A stretch of 64,000 nt of DNA from Octopus vulgaris. Lineage: Eukaryota. The translations under genes were made by a program, and so were the position numbers. Below are positions 2,890-55,926 of the stretch, piece after piece (position 1 is the stretch's first letter; each line of letters begins with the position of its first letter). The DNA lies in contig OX597815.1 of assembly GCA_951406725.2 (NCBI GenBank), positions 82,088,001 through 82,152,000 of the forward strand, given 5' to 3'. The notes below the pieces were generated by a model. It was not told the DNA's origin, made no database searches, and saw only the letters and a list, made by a program, of their open reading frames with translations.

Positions 2890-5038
2890 TGCGAATAGTT
2901 AAAATATCTTTTATTAATATAGTTGATGCTTTAACCGGTTTCACAGTTTACACTGATTTTCAAAATGTTCAAATAGAAACACGTGGCCTATGTCGCAGCT
3001 GTTTTGCTTCTGACTAGAGTTTGAAAGTCTACCCTCATTTTATAGGGGAATCAGGGCTCAATTTAGTTTTTAAAAGGGTTTGATTGGTAGAGGATAGTCA
3101 CTTGACCGGTCTTAGAAATTTTTGTAGGTTCCCCGCTACGTCCGTGTGTTAGTATCAAGTGACATCGTAAGTTAAGGCTGACACATTTTTTCTTAACAGG
3201 TCCAAACAATCAATGATCTGAATGTTTTCTGTCAAGTGTTTGTAGAGAATGAACACGTGATTAAATTTATAACCTACTGTACGTTTCCCGCTACGTTCGT
3301 ACGTTAGTGTCACGTGGCAGTATATTTTGCGCCTAAAATGAAGGCCGACACGCTTGAGTGAACATGTTTAGTTATAATCAAAGAACTCCACATTTAATCT
3401 GCCTGATAGGAGAGTAGACAGGAGTCGTTTGTATGTAGTCCAATGGTTGAAATTTAGGTTGTTAGCTGTGTAGCTTCCTCATGATAAGTGGCAGAATGAA
3501 TTTTGTGTGTGAAGAGTTATTTGTGTATGTATTCTGTTAAAGTTTGTAAAGTCTTGGTTTGTGCTTTTGCACGAAAGTATTTTCTTTCTCTATCTGTGCT
3601 CCATCTGTGGTATTCGCTGAACATAGGTAGAGTGGGGACATCTGGAATTTGGGGGACTTATTTTTTGCACATATGTCTATGTGACCACTCGGTGGAATCT
3701 GTCTAGTACTGATGTCTCTTATTTGTTGTCGGTGAATGGTCAGTCTATTTCTTAGAGTAATCTTTGTTTGACCTATGTAATCTTCATTACATCCTTGACA
3801 TTTGATAGCGTATATTAAATTCCTCGAAGAACATGTAAAGTGATTTTTTACGGTAAAAATCTGTCCTGATTTTAATTTTTATGTTGTGTCCCACAATTGG
3901 GGCGGCCACACTTTTTGACTGTTGGTGTAGGAGTTGTGGAAGGTAATTTAGCACTTGTGAAGAATTTTTTGAGTGACTTTGATTGTCTTTTACTTTTGGT
4001 TATTTTGTGTAGTTCGAATGCTTGTTTCATTCTTCGGTCTTTTTTTAGTAGTGGGATGTTTTGGTGGATAATATTGCAAGCCTCTATATTTCTTAGGTTG
4101 TGTGTTGTATCAAAATGTCGATTATTGGATGTTTTTCGTTTTTCATAGTTCTTGGATATTTATTGCTTTGGCACGTTCTGTTCTGTTGTCTATTGTCTTT
4201 AATGGATATTGTCTTTTAAATAGTATTTGTTTTAGTTTCTGGAGCCTTTTATTGCGAGTTTCAGGGTTTGAGACAATTGTAATGATTCTTCTTCTTGTTT
4301 GGGATGGCATGAAAAGAACAGTAGGTATTGTTTAGAATTTTTTTGTTTGTAATTAATGTCTGTTTCAATGTTTTTATCTCGTTTGATGATTAGTATATCC
4401 AGAAATGGTAGTTGAGTTTTACTGTATTCCATGGCGAAGTTTATGTTATTGTTTATGCTGTTGACCAGGTTTTTGAAATTTATAAGTTGTTTAAATGTAT
4501 ACGTCCATAGAATTAGGCAGTCACCTACGTAATGTTTCCAACTTTCTAGTTAATATTTGTGGAAGTTCAAGCTATATTTTAATTTTGATTATTCATATAC
4601 CTGGACTTCCATGTAAGCCATGACTAAATTGGCGTAAATTGGAGCAACTTTTATCCCAATCGCAGTCCCGGATATTTGTTTGTAAATATTGTCTCCGAAG
4701 TCAAAAAAGTTATTTTCGACGATAAACTTTAATCCTTCAGTGATTAAACTTTTTAAAATTGTGTCTGGAATTTGATGAGTGTATTTCTCAAGCCAGAACT
4801 TTATTGTCTCTAGACCATACTGGTGTGGAATTGTGGTATAGAGGTTTACCACGTCAAAAGATACCATAGTAGTGTCATTGTTTATGGATTTTGGGAGGTG
4901 GTTTAACAGGTCCAGATCGTAACTTACAAGACTCGGTATGTATTTTAAAATAGGTTACAGAAATATATCTAAAACGTTGCTGAGTCTGTATGATTGACAG
5001 TTCGGGGCTGCTACAATTGGTCTAAATTTAAAGTCATA
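2890..5038 (-). mobile_element. 5'-truncated, decayed Penelope-like retroelement (RT + C-terminal GIY-YIG endonuclease)
   Basis: RT motifs VSFDVVNLYTTIPH, NNFFDFGDNIYKQISGTAIG..VAPIYANL, WKHYVGDC (YxDD decayed), LPFLDILI; GIY-YIG FTCSSRNLIYAIKCQGCNEDYIGQTKITLRNRLTIHRQQI at ~3840-3720; stops and frameshifts. Confidence 0.93.
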
Positions 5039-29828: not shown

Positions 29829-32318
29829 GGATCTTTTCAATTGTGTGGTCAGGAGCCCAGATCTTTCTACTTAACTAAATAATTTGAAACTTCGTATGCT
29901 GGTACAGTGTTTCAAAACAAGACACAGATTGGAACTAGTTTATTTGAGAAAAATCTATTTTATGACTTTAAACGTAGATTAAAACTGCGAATTTTAACCA
30001 ATGAGATTGCTTGTTTTCATATTTAATACGTTACTGCATTCTGTTAGTGTGACGTAGAAAGCAGTTTTGTGACATACACCGAGTAAAAAATTTCATCGTT
30101 ATTGTTTTCTTTACATGTTAATATAAAGCGTTACGCATATCAGAAAAAAAAAATGTGTGTAATAGGTGTAAAACAACTTCCTATGAACGAATATGAAAAA
30201 AAAATTCGCGCACGCGAAAGGGGGTGGGGGAGAGGCCTCGGAAAATTCACATCGGGAAGTTCCGAAAGCGTCTGAGGGGCTTACCCGGGCACCAAAACAA
30301 AAAATAAATAGTGTAATATGTGTAAAACAACTTGCTCTAAACGAATAGGACAAAAAAAATGCGCTCTCGCGAAAGAGGGGTGGGGGAGAGGCCTCGGAAA
30401 ATTTATATCGGGAATTTCCGAAAGCGTCTGAACCGGGCACAAAAACAAAAACAAAAACAGCGTAATAGGTGTAAAACAACTTGCTCTAAACGACTATGAT
30501 GAAAAAAATGCGCGCTCGCGAAAGGGGGTGGGGAAGAGGCTTCGGAAATTTCCCATCTTCAGTCCACGGCCTTTAAACTAAGAAAAAATAGTGTAATTGG
30601 TGTAAAACTACTTGTTCTAAACGAGTATCAAGAACACACACTCACACATGAATCATGAACTCCGTATGTTTGTACATATTTCGCAAAAAAAAAAATAAAT
30701 AAATAAAGAGAAGAAATTCTGGAAAAAGTGAAGAAATGTTGGATCTCCGCCATGTGAATCAAAATACGTGTCAGAAACATCTTGAAATACTACAGAAATT
30801 ATGTTACGAAAATGATAATGTATACATACCTCTTTGAGTGGTCCATCGACAATGATGATAAAGAAATGAGTTGGATTTGAACTCAGAATATTGACTAACA
30901 CAACTACATACTACAAGACTCAAAATATTCAGCCAAGTCACCACCCTTTAACTAGCAATAATAATAACATCAATAACATAACAGCCAAAAGATTTATTTG
31001 TTCTGAAAATAACAATCATAGTAAATAAATATGTTCTTTAATATTCACATTCATGTGCACAGTTAAACACACTTACATACAAACAGTCACGCATGCATAA
31101 TACAGAACGGAACACATAAATGAAGGATGCATTACTTAGTATATATTACATCTAGAGAATTTTGATTAATAAGTCAAATATGCAAATTATAAAGATAATT
31201 AATTGCTTTACTAAACAGTGTTGTAAAGGTGAAAAAATAAATTTGGAAAAAAAATACACGCCAAAACTAATTAATAAAGGATTGACACAAAATAATAATT
31301 TTTTCTGTCTCTTTTTTTCTGATAAATGCATCTTAATAAGTGAGAAGAATTGCATATATCTGAACTATTTCAAAGAAAAGCATAAATTTAATGTTTAAAA
31401 TAGCTTTAACCAAGGAATGAGATCCAACATTTCTTCACTTTTTCCAGAATTTCTTCTCTTTATTTATTTTTTTTTTTTTGCGAAATATGTACAAAAATAC
31501 GGAGTTTATGATTCATGTGTGAGTGTGTGTTCTTGATACTCGTTTAGAACAAGTAGTTTTACACCAATTACACTATTTTTTCTTAGTTTGAAGGCCGTGG
31601 ACTGAAGATGGGAAATTTCCGAAGCCTCTCCCCCACCTCCCTTTCGCGAGCGCGCATTTTTTTCATTATAGTCGTTTAGAGCAAGTTGTTTTACACCTAT
31701 TACGCTGTTTTTGTTTTTGTTTTTGTGCCCGGTTCAGACGCTTTCGAAAATTCCCGATATAAATTTTCCGAGGCCTCTCCCCCACCCCTCTTTCGCGAGA
31801 GCGCATTTTTTTGTCATATTCGTTTAGAGCAAGTTGTTTTACACATATTACACTATTTATTTTTTGTTTTGGTGCCCGGGTCAGCCCCTCAGACGCTTTC
31901 GGAACTTCCCGATGTGAATTTTCCGAGGCCTCTCCCCCAACCCCCCTTTCGCGTGCGCGAATTTTTTTTTTCATATTCGTTCATAGGAAATTGTTTTACA
32001 CCTATTACACACATTTTTTTTTTGATTTTCTGATATGCGTAACGCTTTATATTAACCCATTTGTTTACATACCATATGTTTACTACGTCACCAAATTGGT
32101 GGTCGAGACGGAGTAAATAATATGAAGCCGAAAGACGGAATACCATTGGTTAAAATTCTAATTATTAAACAATGTTAAACTTAGAAGTTACAATTCCGTT
32201 TTCATTCTGGTTTACAATTAAGTTTACTTTTGACACATTCTACCAGTATACGAAGTTTCAAATTGTTTGGTTCAGTAGGAAAAATTTGGAAAAACTGGCT
32301 TCACAAATGAAAAGATCC
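29829..32318. mobile_element. ~555-bp MITE with GG..CC termini and 8-bp TSD (Merlin-like), interrupted by a foldback element
   Basis: TIR GGATCTTTTCAATTGTG / CACAAATGAAAAGATCC; perfect TSD CACTCTCA at 29821-29828 and 32319-32326; imperfect inverted symmetry extends ~220 bp. Confidence 0.85.
30122..32051. mobile_element. Young foldback-type element: ~630-bp near-identical TIRs built of ~150-bp subrepeats, TTAA-flanked
   Basis: 30122-30747 is the near-perfect reverse complement of 31419-32051; TTAA at 30118-30121 and 32052-32055; 3.5 copies per arm of a unit with GTGTAAAACAACTT and CGCGAAAG.GGGTGGGG; AT-rich non-coding 670-bp centre. Confidence 0.92.
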
Positions 32319-36263: not shown

Positions 36264-36335
36264 TCCTCGGTAGTATAGTGGTAAGTATCCCCGCCTGTCA
36301 CGCGGGAGATCGGGGTTCGATTCCCCGCCGGGGAG
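36264..36335 (+). tRNA. trnD-GTC: tRNA-Asp(GTC) gene or retroposed tRNA-Asp head
   Basis: TCCTCGGTAGTATAGTGGTAAGTATCCCCGCCTGTCACGCGGGAGATCGGGGTTCGATTCCCCGCCGGGGAG, 72 nt, full cloverleaf, GTC anticodon; TTTTT at 36343-36347; followed by a SINE-type tail. Confidence 0.9.
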
Positions 36336-38504: not shown

Positions 38505-39219
38505 GTACACACATAATTATGTACAGACAGACGCACGTGAATCCCAGCATGTGTTTGTAAAGCAAATTAATTCCACAGGTGAAGTTTGTACTATTGTAGG
38601 AAGAACGTTGTTATCTTTAAAATAGATAAATTACTGCTTGTTGCAAAGACACTGGAACAATGGGGTGTCTTGTAAACATGGCGTACGTTTTCGACACCCA
38701 AACACTCACGCACACATGAACACGTAGAACGCATGCAACCACACACGCACTCACACACACACATTCTCACATCACAGACAAACAGACTGACACACACACA
38801 AACGTATATGTGATGTACATATGTATGTGTTATGTATGATATATGTATCATACACGCATTTCTGTATGTATGTATATATATATAATAAATTAATAAATAA
38901 AACATGCATATATACATACATATATGTACGTACCTACCTCTACATGTATATATACATGCATATATGGGTACAGGACACCAAACAAATGTCGAACACAATG
39001 AGAAACGAAAACATAAACACAAAACCAAGGAAATGGACATTTTTCTTAAACAACAAAATAAATAGACTACAGGACAAATAACACAAGGAAAATTCCCCTT
39101 CTTCAGTCGCCATGGTTTCATCTACTCTGCATTTCGAAGGTGAAGGCGATACGCATCTTCGATAGAAACTTTCCTTCCCGCGAAAAGCAAATTAAATAAA
39201 ATTTGAGATCTTTTTGCGG

Positions 39220-39294
<75 letters not shown>

Positions 39295-39413
39295 AATCAA
39301 GGAATGGCCATAATAGGCCATTCACCCACTAGAAATAACAGCCAAAGCTTCAACCGCAAAATAACATCAATTCCGCAAACCAGGAGAAAATTAAAAAAAC
39401 ATTTACCCTGTAA

Positions 39414-39518
39414 TTTCTTATACGATGCACCGTTTCATCTATTGTTTAATGGTAAACTAACCTGATTAAATTAAATCAAGCCAATCTTCCATAGGCCGAT
39501 AGATTCATCAGTAAGAAA
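39414..39518 (-). ncRNA. Type I hammerhead ribozyme (left-arm copy)
   Basis: Exact reverse complement of 40038-40142. Confidence 0.88.
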
Positions 39519-40037
39519 CAGCCAAGATCCGAGCAGATATTATCACGAGGCATCTCTATCCCTGCCTCGGCAATATCTGACCTAAAATTTTCAAATCATC
39601 GCACTCGCGCCAAATTTATCGGCAGCAAATATAAGCCGCCGATTCCATTACGGAATTAACCAGAAAATTCATAATTAATCAATATAGGGTGGCAAAAAAT
39701 TTCGTAGAATTTATTTGCCACCAGCGGCCTAGTGGGAAAAAATTAAATAGTCATAGACCATTTATAAGTTCAACATCACAATCAAGGAATGGCCATAATA
39801 GGCCATTCACCCACTAGAAATAACAGGCCGCTGGTGGCAAATAAATTCTACGAAATTTTTTGCCACCCTATATTGATTAATTATGAATTTTCTGGTTAAT
39901 TCCGTAATGGAATCGGCGGCTTATATTTGCTGCCGATAAATTTGGCGCGAGTGCGATGATTTGAAAATTTTTAGGTCAGATATTGCCGAGGCAGGGATAG
40001 AGATGCCTCGTGATAATATCTGCTCGGATCTTGGCTG

Positions 40038-40142
40038 TTTCTTACTGATGAATCTATCGGCCTATGGAAGATTGGCTTGATTTAATTTAATCAGGTTAGT
40101 TTACCATTAAACAATAGATGAAACGGTGCATCGTATAAGAAA
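40038..40142 (+). ncRNA. Type I hammerhead ribozyme with long stem II; predicted cleavage GUA| after 40135
   Basis: TTTCTTA-CTGATGA-ATCTAT...ATAGAT-GAAA-CGGTGCATCG-TA-TAAGAAA: 7-bp stem I, intact core, 68-nt stem II hairpin, quasi-palindromic stem III. Confidence 0.9.
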
Positions 40143-40362
40143 TTACAGGGTAAATGTTTTTTTAATTTTCTCCTGGTTTGCGGAATTGATGTTATTTTGC
40201 GGTTGAAGCTTTGGCTGTTATTTCTAGTGGGTGAATGGCCTATTATGGCCATTCCTTGATTGTGATGTTGAACTTATAAATGGTCTATGACTATTTAATT
40301 TTTTCCCACTAGGCCGCTGGTGGCAAATAAATTCTAAGAAATTTTTTGCCACCCTATATTGA

Positions 40363-40409
<47 letters not shown>

Positions 40410-40437
40410 CATATAAATATATATATATATATATATA

Positions 40438-40524
<87 letters not shown>

Positions 40525-40567
40525 ATATATATATATATGTATGTATATATATATATATATATGTATG

Positions 40568-40632
<65 letters not shown>

Positions 40633-40823
40633 TCCCGTATATATATATATATATACTAATTATGATAAAATCATAATTTAATGATTTATCAGTGGCCAGC
40701 ATACTAAAAATACCATAATGATTAATTTATATTAAAATTATAATAAGGGTATTTAATGATTGCAACACCAGTTTGCTAGAAATATACCCCAAATGGTCTA
40801 TTGTGTTTTCATGTTTGGATTAA

Positions 40824-40871
<48 letters not shown>

Positions 40872-41426
40872 CGATAGGTGAATGAATTATCCTATGTTTA
40901 CCGTCAACATGGAAAATTCGATGAACCGATACCAGGGAAGCAAATTCACGTCAGAAACACAGTTGAAGCGACCTGTCCAAGGATAGAAACTCCGGGTTCA
41001 TGTGCAGAAATTTGTGTGTTATATATGAATAAATAAATGAATGGAGTTGAACGAAGATGTTAATAAAATTCCTCTACTCTCGACCTATGTTTCGAAGACA
41101 ACATGATTTCATTCCAAAGGAATAAACGGTGCAAGATGCAATCTTCTCATCAGGAAAGAAAGGGAGCCTCTCACAACAAGACAAACAAAAATTGCGATGA
41201 CTGCCTACATGGTAAACAAAACGATAATAAGAGTTTTAAAAAAACCGTTAGTAGAATTGACGTCAAAGTTGGATAGTAGGAAGAGAAGGGTTAAAGGAAT
41301 AATAGGTGGGGAACAAGTGGAGAGGGTACGTTGATTAAAAGAATGTTCAAAGGCTTTGGAAAGAATTTCGCTATTGAAGTGGAGTGCACGTTAAGCTAAT
41401 TGTTCAAACCACAATGACTATCGTAA

Positions 41427-42025
41427 TCATTTATATGAGTAAAACGTATGTTTCTGCCAGTGTTTACATTTGTACGATTTCTCTATGAGTGTGTTTACAA
41501 GGGGAACCTTAGAGAAGAGAATATGGAAGAGTTCAGAGTTGCAAATGTTACAAAATCTCCTGCCCTTATCAAAAGGAAAGGATACAGACAGAATGAACCA
41601 ATCTAACTTAAAATCTATATTATTGTCTTTAAGACGCCAAACTAATTTACTTAGCCCTGTACTATGTCGTTTTTTACTATTTCTGAATGTTGAATAATGG
41701 TTTGAAATTCTCTTGGATAACTGGAAAGTGGACGCTCCTATATAGAAGAAGACATCGGTACCGGAAGAAATTCTACGCTGGTAAATAGAATTTTTAATCT
41801 TAGAATTACTAGACAAAAATTTAATTCTGTTGGGGTTGTCCTCCGAGATCGAAGCGAAGTTTTTATTGCTACGATTGTTGCTACTATTATTATTAGCACA
41901 ACCAACAACACTATTCCTATTATTATTAGTATTATTAATGGTAATACAACCAATAATACCATCAACAATAATACCGTTATTGTTATTACTATTAACATTG
42001 CCATTGTTATTAACACGACTATTAC

Positions 42026-42095
<70 letters not shown>

Positions 42096-42218
42096 GTTAT
42101 TATTATCATTGTTAACACTATCACTACTACCATTGCTATTACTATTAATACTATTCCTATTATTATGATTGTATGATGGGTTGGAATTAGCAAGATTAAT
42201 GCTGGAATTCCCGGGTGA
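41427..42218 (-). CDS. Truncated PLE ORF: Asn/Ser-rich linker plus GIY-YIG endonuclease domain
   Basis: NSIYQ...FYIGAS....KRISNHYSTF...HSTGLSKLVWRLKD...W.I...FCNICNSE...KCKH; frame stays open upstream through an (AAT)n-coded linker to the inversion junction; no start codon, so not independently expressed. Confidence 0.85.
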
Positions 42219-42328
42219 AGAACTTTGACGTCAATTCTACTAACGGTTTTTAAAACACTTATTATCGTTTTGTTTACCATGTAGGCAGTCATCGCAATTT
42301 TTGTTTGTCTTGTTGTTGAGAGAGGCTC

Positions 42329-42421
42329 CCTTTCTTTCCTGATGAGAAGATTGCATCTTGCACCGTTTATTCCTTTGGAATGAAATCATGTTGTCTTCGA
42401 AACATATGTCGAGAGTAAAGG
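42329..42421 (+). ncRNA. Type I hammerhead ribozyme in PLE pLTR (second copy 41071-41163 minus); predicted cleavage GUC| after 42410
   Basis: CCTTT-CTTTC-CTGATGA-GAAGA...TCTTC-GAAA-CATATG-TC-GAGAG-T-AAAGG; palindromic ACATATGT stem III. Confidence 0.88.
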
Positions 42422-42474
42422 AATTTTGTTAACACCTTCGTTCAACTCCATTCATTATATATATATATATATAT

Positions 42475-55528: not shown

Positions 55529-55926
55529 TAGTTATCGCCATACTAATATGGCATTCTTATAAAAATATGAATAAAGCTGACCGCTCATTAGCTCCATGAG
55601 GCCATCGCCTTAAGTTAGCTATTTGATACACAAACTGTATCCATATAACCTTCGAACAAGGGAGGTCAGTCGCTCCACACTACTTGACCGGCAGCTACAG
55701 ACACGTTTCGGGGTATTGCCCCTTTTCAATGCAGCGTAGCCAAACCAGTAGGTGTCGCTTCTGACAATCTCTGTTCAAAGGTTTTATTTACCTAGCATCC
55801 CTTGTTCGAAGGTTATATGGATACAGTTTGTTTATCAAATAGCTAACTTAAGGCGATGGCCTCATGGAGCTAATGAGCGGTCAGCTTTATTCTTATTTTT
55901 ATAAGAATGCCATATCAGTATGGCGA

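What the first reader, a model, noticed from the sequence alone, without database searches (positions are those of the whole stretch)
39290..40367. Genomic footprint of a ~485-nt ribozyme-bearing circular RNA (retrozyme/viroid-like), integrated as two inverted over-length copies
Seen: between two (TA)n tracts lie two reverse-complementary arms of ~537 and ~543 nt. Each arm is one full 485/486-nt unit plus ~50-57 nt of terminal redundancy, and the two arms start at different points of the unit (circular permutation). The unit has no credible ORF and contains one complete hammerhead. It is packed with hairpins (39833-39867, 39912-39937, 39977-40022, 40233-40254, and CTAGTGGG 40224/CCCACTAG 40305). 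Both arms read straight through the predicted cleavage site and neither ends there. The arms are nearly identical, so the event is recent. Known: non-autonomous animal retrozymes with type I hammerheads yield small circular RNAs and are thought to be mobilised by Penelope-like RTs; described monomers are mostly shorter and in direct tandem arrays. Inference: a circular (or multimeric) RNA was reverse transcribed for more than one round from both ends of a break in (TA)n. This may be an undescribed, larger cephalopod circRNA family.
Basis: partly seen in the sequence, partly recalled or inferred. Interest (0 to 1): 0.92.

Follow-up and report, generated by a model that had tools for sequence, protein, structure and literature searches.

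The report
Ribozyme retroelement primed at two sites
This is one copy of a young, abundant jumping element made of a 485-letter non-coding RNA with a self-cutting ribozyme, and its copies show that it is pasted into (TA)n repeats from two fixed start points, one per DNA strand, just as Penelope-type retrotransposons do.

Summary
The anatomy is real: two inverted arms (537 and 543 nt) of a 485/486-nt non-coding unit with a complete type I hammerhead, set in (TA)n. It is one of well over 1,000 insertions of a young non-LTR retrozyme family. In 61 mapped insertions, 94 of 96 arms end at one of two sites about 104 nt apart (A, B); only 5' ends scatter. Of 35 inverted insertions, 33 pair an A arm with a B arm and none pairs A/A or B/B. 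An intact Neptune-type Penelope-like element in the same genome shows the same target and pairing (4 of 4) with a 40-nt tail. Both arms usually share one haplotype and read precisely through the cleavage site. Best model: a Penelope-type RT/endonuclease dimer nicks both strands of (TA)n and primes at A and B of one RNA, probably a monomeric circle (about 60%); an uncleaved linear multimer remains possible. Size is not unusual for retrozymes, and the equal over-length arms are chance. No RNA was demonstrated and the partner is not identified by sequence. New member of a known kind, with an unusually clear mechanistic footprint.

The parts
39228..39291 (.). Left half of the (TA)n target
   Evidence: TRF, 32 copies
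39290..39826 (-). Arm primed at site A: 537 nt, 3' end at unit position 131 (…GATTGTGAT|TA), 5' end at position 80; unit position 1 = window 40136
39414..39518 (-). Type I hammerhead, left copy; predicted cut after 39421
39825..39826 (.). 5'-to-5' inversion junction, 2-nt microhomology (AG)
39825..40367 (+). Arm primed at site B: 543 nt, 3' end at unit position 232 (…ATTGATTAAT|AT), 5' end at position 176
40038..40142 (+). Type I hammerhead, right copy: 7-bp stem I, CUGAUGA, stem II extended to 68 nt, GAAA, stem III with palindromic UGCA loop, GUA cut after 40135
   Evidence: core conservation; stem II covariation
40233..40266 (+). Hairpin followed by UUGAUU and priming site A (40266), read through in this arm
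40319..40367 (+). Hairpin followed by UUGAUU and priming site B (family ends at unit 228-239)
40366..40655 (.). Right half of the (TA)n target, degenerate distally
   Evidence: TRF

Best explanation
A non-autonomous, non-LTR retrozyme mobilised in trans by a (TA)n-targeting Penelope-like element (PLE). Shown in sequence: head-to-tail non-coding units with a conserved hammerhead; insertion into (TA)n; 3' ends at two fixed internal sites; inverted insertions use one of each; both arms usually share a haplotype; no stop or scar at the cleavage site. Inferred: tandem copies are transcribed, the hammerhead releases 485-nt monomers and a host ligase closes them. A PLE RT/GIY-YIG dimer binds the RNA around sites A and B and nicks both strands of (TA)n. 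Each nick primes at one site, both RTs run on around the template, and the two cDNAs are joined 5'-to-5' by short microhomology. If only one cDNA is kept, a single-arm insertion ending at A or B results. A-to-B is the retrozyme's version of the PLE 'tail'. My odds: PLE-type two-site priming 0.85; monomeric circle as main template 0.6; the sampled 781-aa Neptune-type family as the partner 0.45.
For: 3' ends: 50 B, 44 A, 2 other of 96 arms; pairs 33 A/B, 2 B/other, 0 A/A, 0 B/B of 35; 12 of 12 A/B in loci found by the two short queries. Junction pattern lists for C1 1-70 Mb: 7 of 7 inverted pairs A/B, 5 of them new. The best (TA)-like words of the unit (5 nt at positions 224, 277) are not used as ends, so choice is not microhomology alone. 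Same-genome PLE: ORF of 781 aa in 11 of 12 loci, RT then CxxxxCxxC then GIY-YIG, ends in (TA)n at two sites 34-40 nt apart, 4 of 4 inverted insertions with both ends visible pair them. In vitro a PLE cuts and extends both strands, initiates at two internal sites and is modelled as a dimer (PMC11167929). One template: 13 alleles private to a sampled locus are fixed in both arms (9 loci); common alleles agree between arms in 100 of 104 cases. 83 of 96 arms cross the cut site; 159 of 159 junctions have no indel. Ribozyme kept: 1 allele in 12 core sites against 6.1 expected, p 0.016, while N7 takes all four bases; an A-U to G-C swap in stem II in 7 of 100 listed copies, 4 loci. Alleles fixed within a locus are strand-biased (purine 24, pyrimidine 8 transitions, p 0.002) and singletons are not (42, 37).
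Against: No RNA, circle or cleavage was shown. The unit has no sequence likeness to the candidate PLE (best E 0.45) or to other GIY-YIG loci, and several PLE families exist. A/B pairing does not by itself need a circle. 5' ends are mildly enriched just 3' of the cut site (14 against 6.9, p 0.012 in one of 17 bins), as some linear templates would give. Long arrays show periodic partial alleles (L031 period 4, L069 period 5), so they also grew or recombined locally. In L065 the two arms differ in haplotype. Arms were closer to each other than to the nearest other locus in only 11 of 31 loci. 'Private' refers to 63 sampled loci of more than 1,000. In vitro, the studied PLE preferred uncleaved RNA, and 8 of 9 Xenopus retrozyme dimers did not cleave.
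Confidence: 0.7

Rival explanations
1. Same PLE two-site priming, but the template is an uncleaved linear multimeric transcript of a genomic array; arrays are homogenised and extended by local exchange, and circles, if any, are by-products.
For: Uncleaved RNA was the main substrate for a PLE in vitro. Mild excess of 5' ends at unit 1-30. Periodic alleles in long arrays. The preprint favours local amplification. A dimer bound to one A-B domain would pair A with B on a linear RNA too.
Against: Alleles are fixed across all turns and both arms in 185 of 197 cases, which needs a one-unit bottleneck in most generations. The hammerhead core is conserved. Only 1 of 96 arms stops exactly at the cut site.
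Confidence: 0.22
2. The unit is only the pLTR of a long coding PLE and the copies are its 5'-truncated ends.
For: Target, inversion and two 3' ends are all PLE traits. Xenopus retrozymes are related to pLTRs. One copy (L076) lies about 230 nt downstream of a decayed RT fragment.
Against: Arms longer than one unit continue into another unit, up to 9.2 turns, and none of 63 loci continues into a PLE body at a shared junction. The L076 fragment stops at aa 534, without the endonuclease end. Descent from an old pLTR is not excluded.
Confidence: 0.04
3. A DNA satellite or DNA-level mobile repeat spread by recombination, with a passive hammerhead.
For: Tandem arrays and signs of local exchange exist.
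Against: Fixed 3' ends with scattered 5' ends, strict polarity to (TA)n, A/B pairing, conserved core and strand-biased alleles are retrotransposition and RNA signatures.
Confidence: 0.03
4. The inversion is an assembly artefact.
For: No contig laid spans the whole locus; no long reads were seen.
Against: 35 insertions on many contigs have the same layout with different junctions and locus-specific alleles on both arms.
Confidence: 0.01

Closest known systems
Metazoan non-LTR retrozymes (coral, mussel, axolotl; PMC7229834, results and discussion read; bioRxiv 10.64898/2026.07.22.740005, abstract to discussion read)
   Same: Non-coding head-to-tail repeats, one type I hammerhead per unit, GC under 50%, structured monomer, no LTR, co-occurrence with PLEs; size within the 51-972 bp range of the preprint.
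   Different: In the parts read, neither paper describes fixed priming sites, inverted two-arm insertions or a (TA)n target; mobilisation by PLEs is proposed there, not shown. Stem II is extended to 68 nt. CircRNA is shown for those families and not for this one.
Endonuclease-containing Penelope-like elements (Neptune, Naiad, Poseidon; PMC8557442 passages; PMC11167929 main text)
   Same: 5' truncation, partial tandems, inverted 5'-truncated copy, a tail often at one end only, (TA)n bias, two internal RT start sites.
   Different: No ORF; tail about 104 nt against 30-40 nt; up to 9 turns; hammerhead with a full stem III. The in vitro study saw no difference in start site between strands and did not report one-site-per-strand pairing.
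Non-autonomous Chlamys elements such as MRC1 (PMC8557442 passage)
   Same: Non-autonomous PLE passengers with multicopy head-to-tail insertions.
   Different: Those resemble their autonomous partner at the 3' end; no such likeness was found here. They are from green algae.
L1 twin priming (recalled)
   Same: Two primers from one target break on one RNA, inverted product joined by short microhomology.
   Different: In L1 the second site is variable and the two segments do not overlap; here both sites are fixed and the arms overlap by whole turns.
Viroids and plant LTR retrozymes (search listing and recall)
   Same: Small structured RNA with a hammerhead.
   Different: Hammerhead on one strand only, type I; no LTR; a genomic retroelement with no sign of an infectious phase.

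Membership tests
Non-LTR retrozyme | Head-to-tail repeats of a few hundred bp | tested here: met
   485-490-nt units, up to 9.2 turns
Non-LTR retrozyme | One type I hammerhead in each unit | tested here: met
   856 core-pattern matches genome-wide; not detected by Rfam
Non-LTR retrozyme | No coding capacity, no LTR layout, GC under 50% | tested here: met
   longest frame in the arms 60 aa; unit 37% GC from base counts; PBS and PPT were not searched separately
Non-LTR retrozyme | Stable self-paired monomer | tested here: met
   z -5.3 as a circle; 5 of 8 common alleles at paired sites keep the pair, 3 break it
Non-LTR retrozyme | Self-cleavage | not testable with these tools
   only conservation and covariation; MFE fold forms stems I and II but not the catalytic fold
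Non-LTR retrozyme | Expressed as linear and circular monomer RNA | not testable with these tools
   only assembled contigs were available, which cannot show strand, ends or circularity
Non-LTR retrozyme | Target-site duplication, when present | tested here: inconclusive
   hidden in (TA)n
PLE-mobilised element | Fixed 3' ends at two internal sites (tail), variable 5' truncation | tested here: met
PLE-mobilised element | Inverted 5'-truncated partner copy and microsatellite target | tested here: met
   35 of 61 insertions inverted; ends in (TA)n
PLE-mobilised element | Sequence likeness to the pLTR or 3' end of an autonomous PLE | tested here: not met
   none in 42 GIY-YIG or full-length PLE loci; most of 6136 candidates were not examined
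Autonomous PLE | RT plus GIY-YIG ORF in the element | tested here: not met
Viroid (hammerhead type) | Ribozymes in both polarities | tested here: not met
   one hammerhead per arm, on the sense strand only
Viroid (hammerhead type) | RNA-to-RNA replication without a DNA phase | not testable with these tools
   genomic copies are abundant; RNA replication cannot be judged

The most novel reading that the evidence does not exclude
A monomeric ribozyme circle is the true template, and one PLE dimer primes both nicked target strands at two fixed sites of that single circle, each RT rolling for up to several turns. This would be a direct genomic record of rolling-circle retrotransposition of an animal retrozyme and would give one rule (one start site per strand) for the PLE tail and inverted insertions. 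The A-to-G skew among template-borne alleles would then be A-to-I edits of the circle written back into the genome.
Probability: 0.45. Interest if true: 0.75.

Novelty: new member of a known kind. Interest (0 to 1): 0.58.

Why it matters
How animal retrozymes move, and why PLEs leave tails and inverted copies, are stated as open in the papers read. This family gives more than 1,000 young insertions with a sharp rule, and an intact candidate enzyme sits in the same genome. A 485-nt RNA and one ORF are enough for an in vitro test of strand-to-site assignment and of circle against linear template. The element class itself is known.

Tried and rejected
Expression: no RNA holder listed. Four runs were laid as contigs; three are only guessed to be RNA. 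One contig of X1 bridges the predicted cut site, and X7, under a second organism label, covers 22 of 30 bins; none of this shows transcription, strand or circularity. Rfam found no hammerhead at either threshold. My first hammerhead regex missed the known motif and was discarded, then rewritten. Nearest-neighbour distance as a same-template test was weak, 11 of 31, and was replaced by allele sharing. No parent pLTR was found among sampled PLE loci. Equal arm length as a rule was rejected (Spearman -0.09). Three complex loci (L036, L038, L053) and short secondary fragments in L063, L073, L089 and L101 were left out of the counts, two adjacent fragments in L068 were merged, and L174 counts as two insertions; the outer ends of the three dropped loci are also A and B. 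The first 40 loci came from a query ending at B, hence the two further queries. The PLE control query ended at its first site, so it cannot give site frequencies. The reverse count (2777) is inflated by overlapping matches and was not used. Literature searches found no cephalopod retrozyme and no report of paired priming sites; subscription papers and repeat libraries were not searchable, and the supplements of PMC7229834 and of the preprint were not seen and may list such families. Earlier scan findings: none.

Full report
Observation. The two arms, their lengths, the 485/486-nt unit, the 52- and 57-nt redundancies and the (TA)n flanks are as described. I number the unit from the base after the predicted cut (1 = window 40136). 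The left arm runs on the minus strand from 80 round to 131; the right arm runs on the plus strand from 176 round to 232. The arms meet 5' to 5' with a 2-nt overlap, and both 3' ends face (TA)n. The hammerhead is type I with a 7-bp stem I, a 68-nt extended stem II and a short stem III with a palindromic loop (numbering recalled). Rfam misses it; my scan gave 0 hits in 10 shuffled windows.

Family. The genome (2.8 Gb) gave 1873 candidates for the unit, of which 40 were scored. Exact patterns gave 444 site-A junctions, 687 site-B junctions on the forward strand alone and 856 intact hammerhead cores, so there are well over 1,000 insertions. Sampled arms of 100 nt or more are 92-100% identical to the window unit. 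The window copy shares its haplotype with a 9.2-turn array on C8.

Ends. I mapped 63 loci from three queries (mapped in 13, 19, 32) and counted 61 insertions after the exclusions listed under Tried and rejected. Of 96 arms, 44 end at A (125-136), 50 at B (228-239) and 2 elsewhere. The 5' ends scatter round the unit. Of 35 inverted insertions 33 are A/B, 2 are B/other, none is A/A or B/B; independent choice would give about 1e-10 (ignoring ascertainment). The two short queries alone give 12 of 12. Pattern lists for C1 1-70 Mb hold 11 A and 33 B junctions and 7 inverted pairs, all A/B. Single-arm insertions end at A (11) or B (15). Each site lies just 3' of a strong hairpin and a UUGAUU word, inside one domain closed by a 13-bp helix. 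Better (TA)-like words elsewhere are unused. Inversion junctions overlap by 1-7 nt in 30 of 43 (BLAST ends).

Partner. A GIY-YIG search gave 6136 candidates. [quoted passage not shown] That layout matches Neptune/Nematis PLEs, whose linker is thought to direct microsatellite targeting (PMC8557442 passages). It ends in (TA)n at two sites 34-40 nt apart, and 4 of 4 inverted insertions with both ends in view pair them. A second hammerhead element beside the finding has the same asymmetry, about 165 nt. PMC8557442 notes that the tail is often at one end only. PMC11167929 (main text read) shows a PLE cutting and extending both strands from two internal start sites and models a dimer. The retrozyme therefore carries the PLE insertion signature. 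No sequence link to this or other sampled PLEs was found, so the partner family is unproven.

One template, and its form. Substitution distance is 0.68% within arrays, 0.85% between arms and 2.3% between loci. Thirteen alleles seen in one sampled locus only are fixed in both arms; common alleles agree between arms in 100 of 104 cases and across all copies of a locus in 185 of 197. L065 is an exception. 83 of 96 arms cross the cut site, one stops on it, and 159 of 159 junctions are free of indels, which argues against end-to-end jumping on cut monomers. Fixation of alleles over all turns is most simply a one-unit bottleneck followed by rolling synthesis (inference). Against a pure circle model: 5' ends are about twice as common as expected at 1-30 (not significant after 17 bins), and long arrays carry periodic partial alleles that point to local duplication or exchange. 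An uncleaved linear multimer would also give A/B pairing.

RNA-level signals. The core has 1 allele in 12 sites against 6.1 expected, while the free N7 position takes all four bases. Stem II shows an A-U to G-C swap in a subfamily. Among 50 alleles fixed within a locus, A>G outnumbers T>C 13 to 5 (p 0.006) and 9 of 13 follow a U (34% expected, p 0.01); singletons show no bias. The direct contrast between the two classes is borderline (p 0.058), the polarity of common alleles is uncertain, and selection on structure or RT error could also cause it. A-to-I editing (preference recalled) is a lead, not a result.

Comparison. Non-LTR retrozymes are described from coral, mussel and axolotl as 170-400-nt circles probably moved by PLEs (PMC7229834, results and discussion; PMC7761336 passages). 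The 2026 preprint gives 51-972 bp, links them to pLTRs and favours local amplification. The element meets every sequence criterion tested; cleavage and circular RNA could not be tested. Searches found no cephalopod family and no account of paired priming sites, within the limits of the library and unseen supplements.

Verdict. A real, young non-LTR retrozyme that works like a non-autonomous PLE. The class is known and the size is ordinary. The value lies in the one-site-per-strand rule, which ties retrozyme spread to PLE priming and can be tested with one RNA and one protein. Interest 0.58.

Noticed in passing
window 40870-42457: A second hammerhead-bearing element in (TA)n with inverted arms (cores at 41153 minus and 42339 plus, 94.5% alike); the left arm's 3' end runs about 165 nt further than the right, the same asymmetry. 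Relative in L046.
   Followed up: partly
window 3534-5035 (-): Remnant of a Neptune-type RT/endonuclease ORF, 45-51% identical to the 781-aa protein.
   Followed up: no
window 55700-55729 (-); L137, L139, L140, L154: Minimal hammerhead-like motifs with UUGANAA in place of CUGANGA, also near the 3' ends of Neptune-type copies; read as a U3-A8 core swap from recall.
   Followed up: partly
L168 oriented 870-2200: The full-length Neptune-type unit is about 4.7 kb and seems to carry an upstream reading frame and CCAAT/TGACGTCA-rich repeats in its pLTR.
   Followed up: no
window 40071-40083: The extended stem II of the hammerhead holds a CCAAT-box-like word on the opposite strand (motif recalled); a possible internal promoter element.
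   Followed up: no
L031 (C8), L069 (C4): Long arrays with period-4 and period-5 allele patterns, suggesting block duplication after insertion, a multimeric template or assembly error.
   Followed up: partly
L065: One arm carries a stretch of the other subfamily's alleles (388-409), a recombinant or second template.
   Followed up: no
window 30144-32029: Two arrays of a 149-nt repeat whose consensus units look reverse-complementary, like the ends of a foldback or MITE-type element.
   Followed up: no
window 38951-39227: The left flank is itself a dispersed repeat next to (TA)n, found in L060, L133, L146, L179.
   Followed up: no
window 36264-36335 (+): tRNA gene, GTC anticodon by my reading.
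   Followed up: no
L046, L138, L168, L183, L189 flanks: Several other type I hammerhead families, many with long stem II, lie in flanks of fetched loci; such elements are common in this genome.
   Followed up: no
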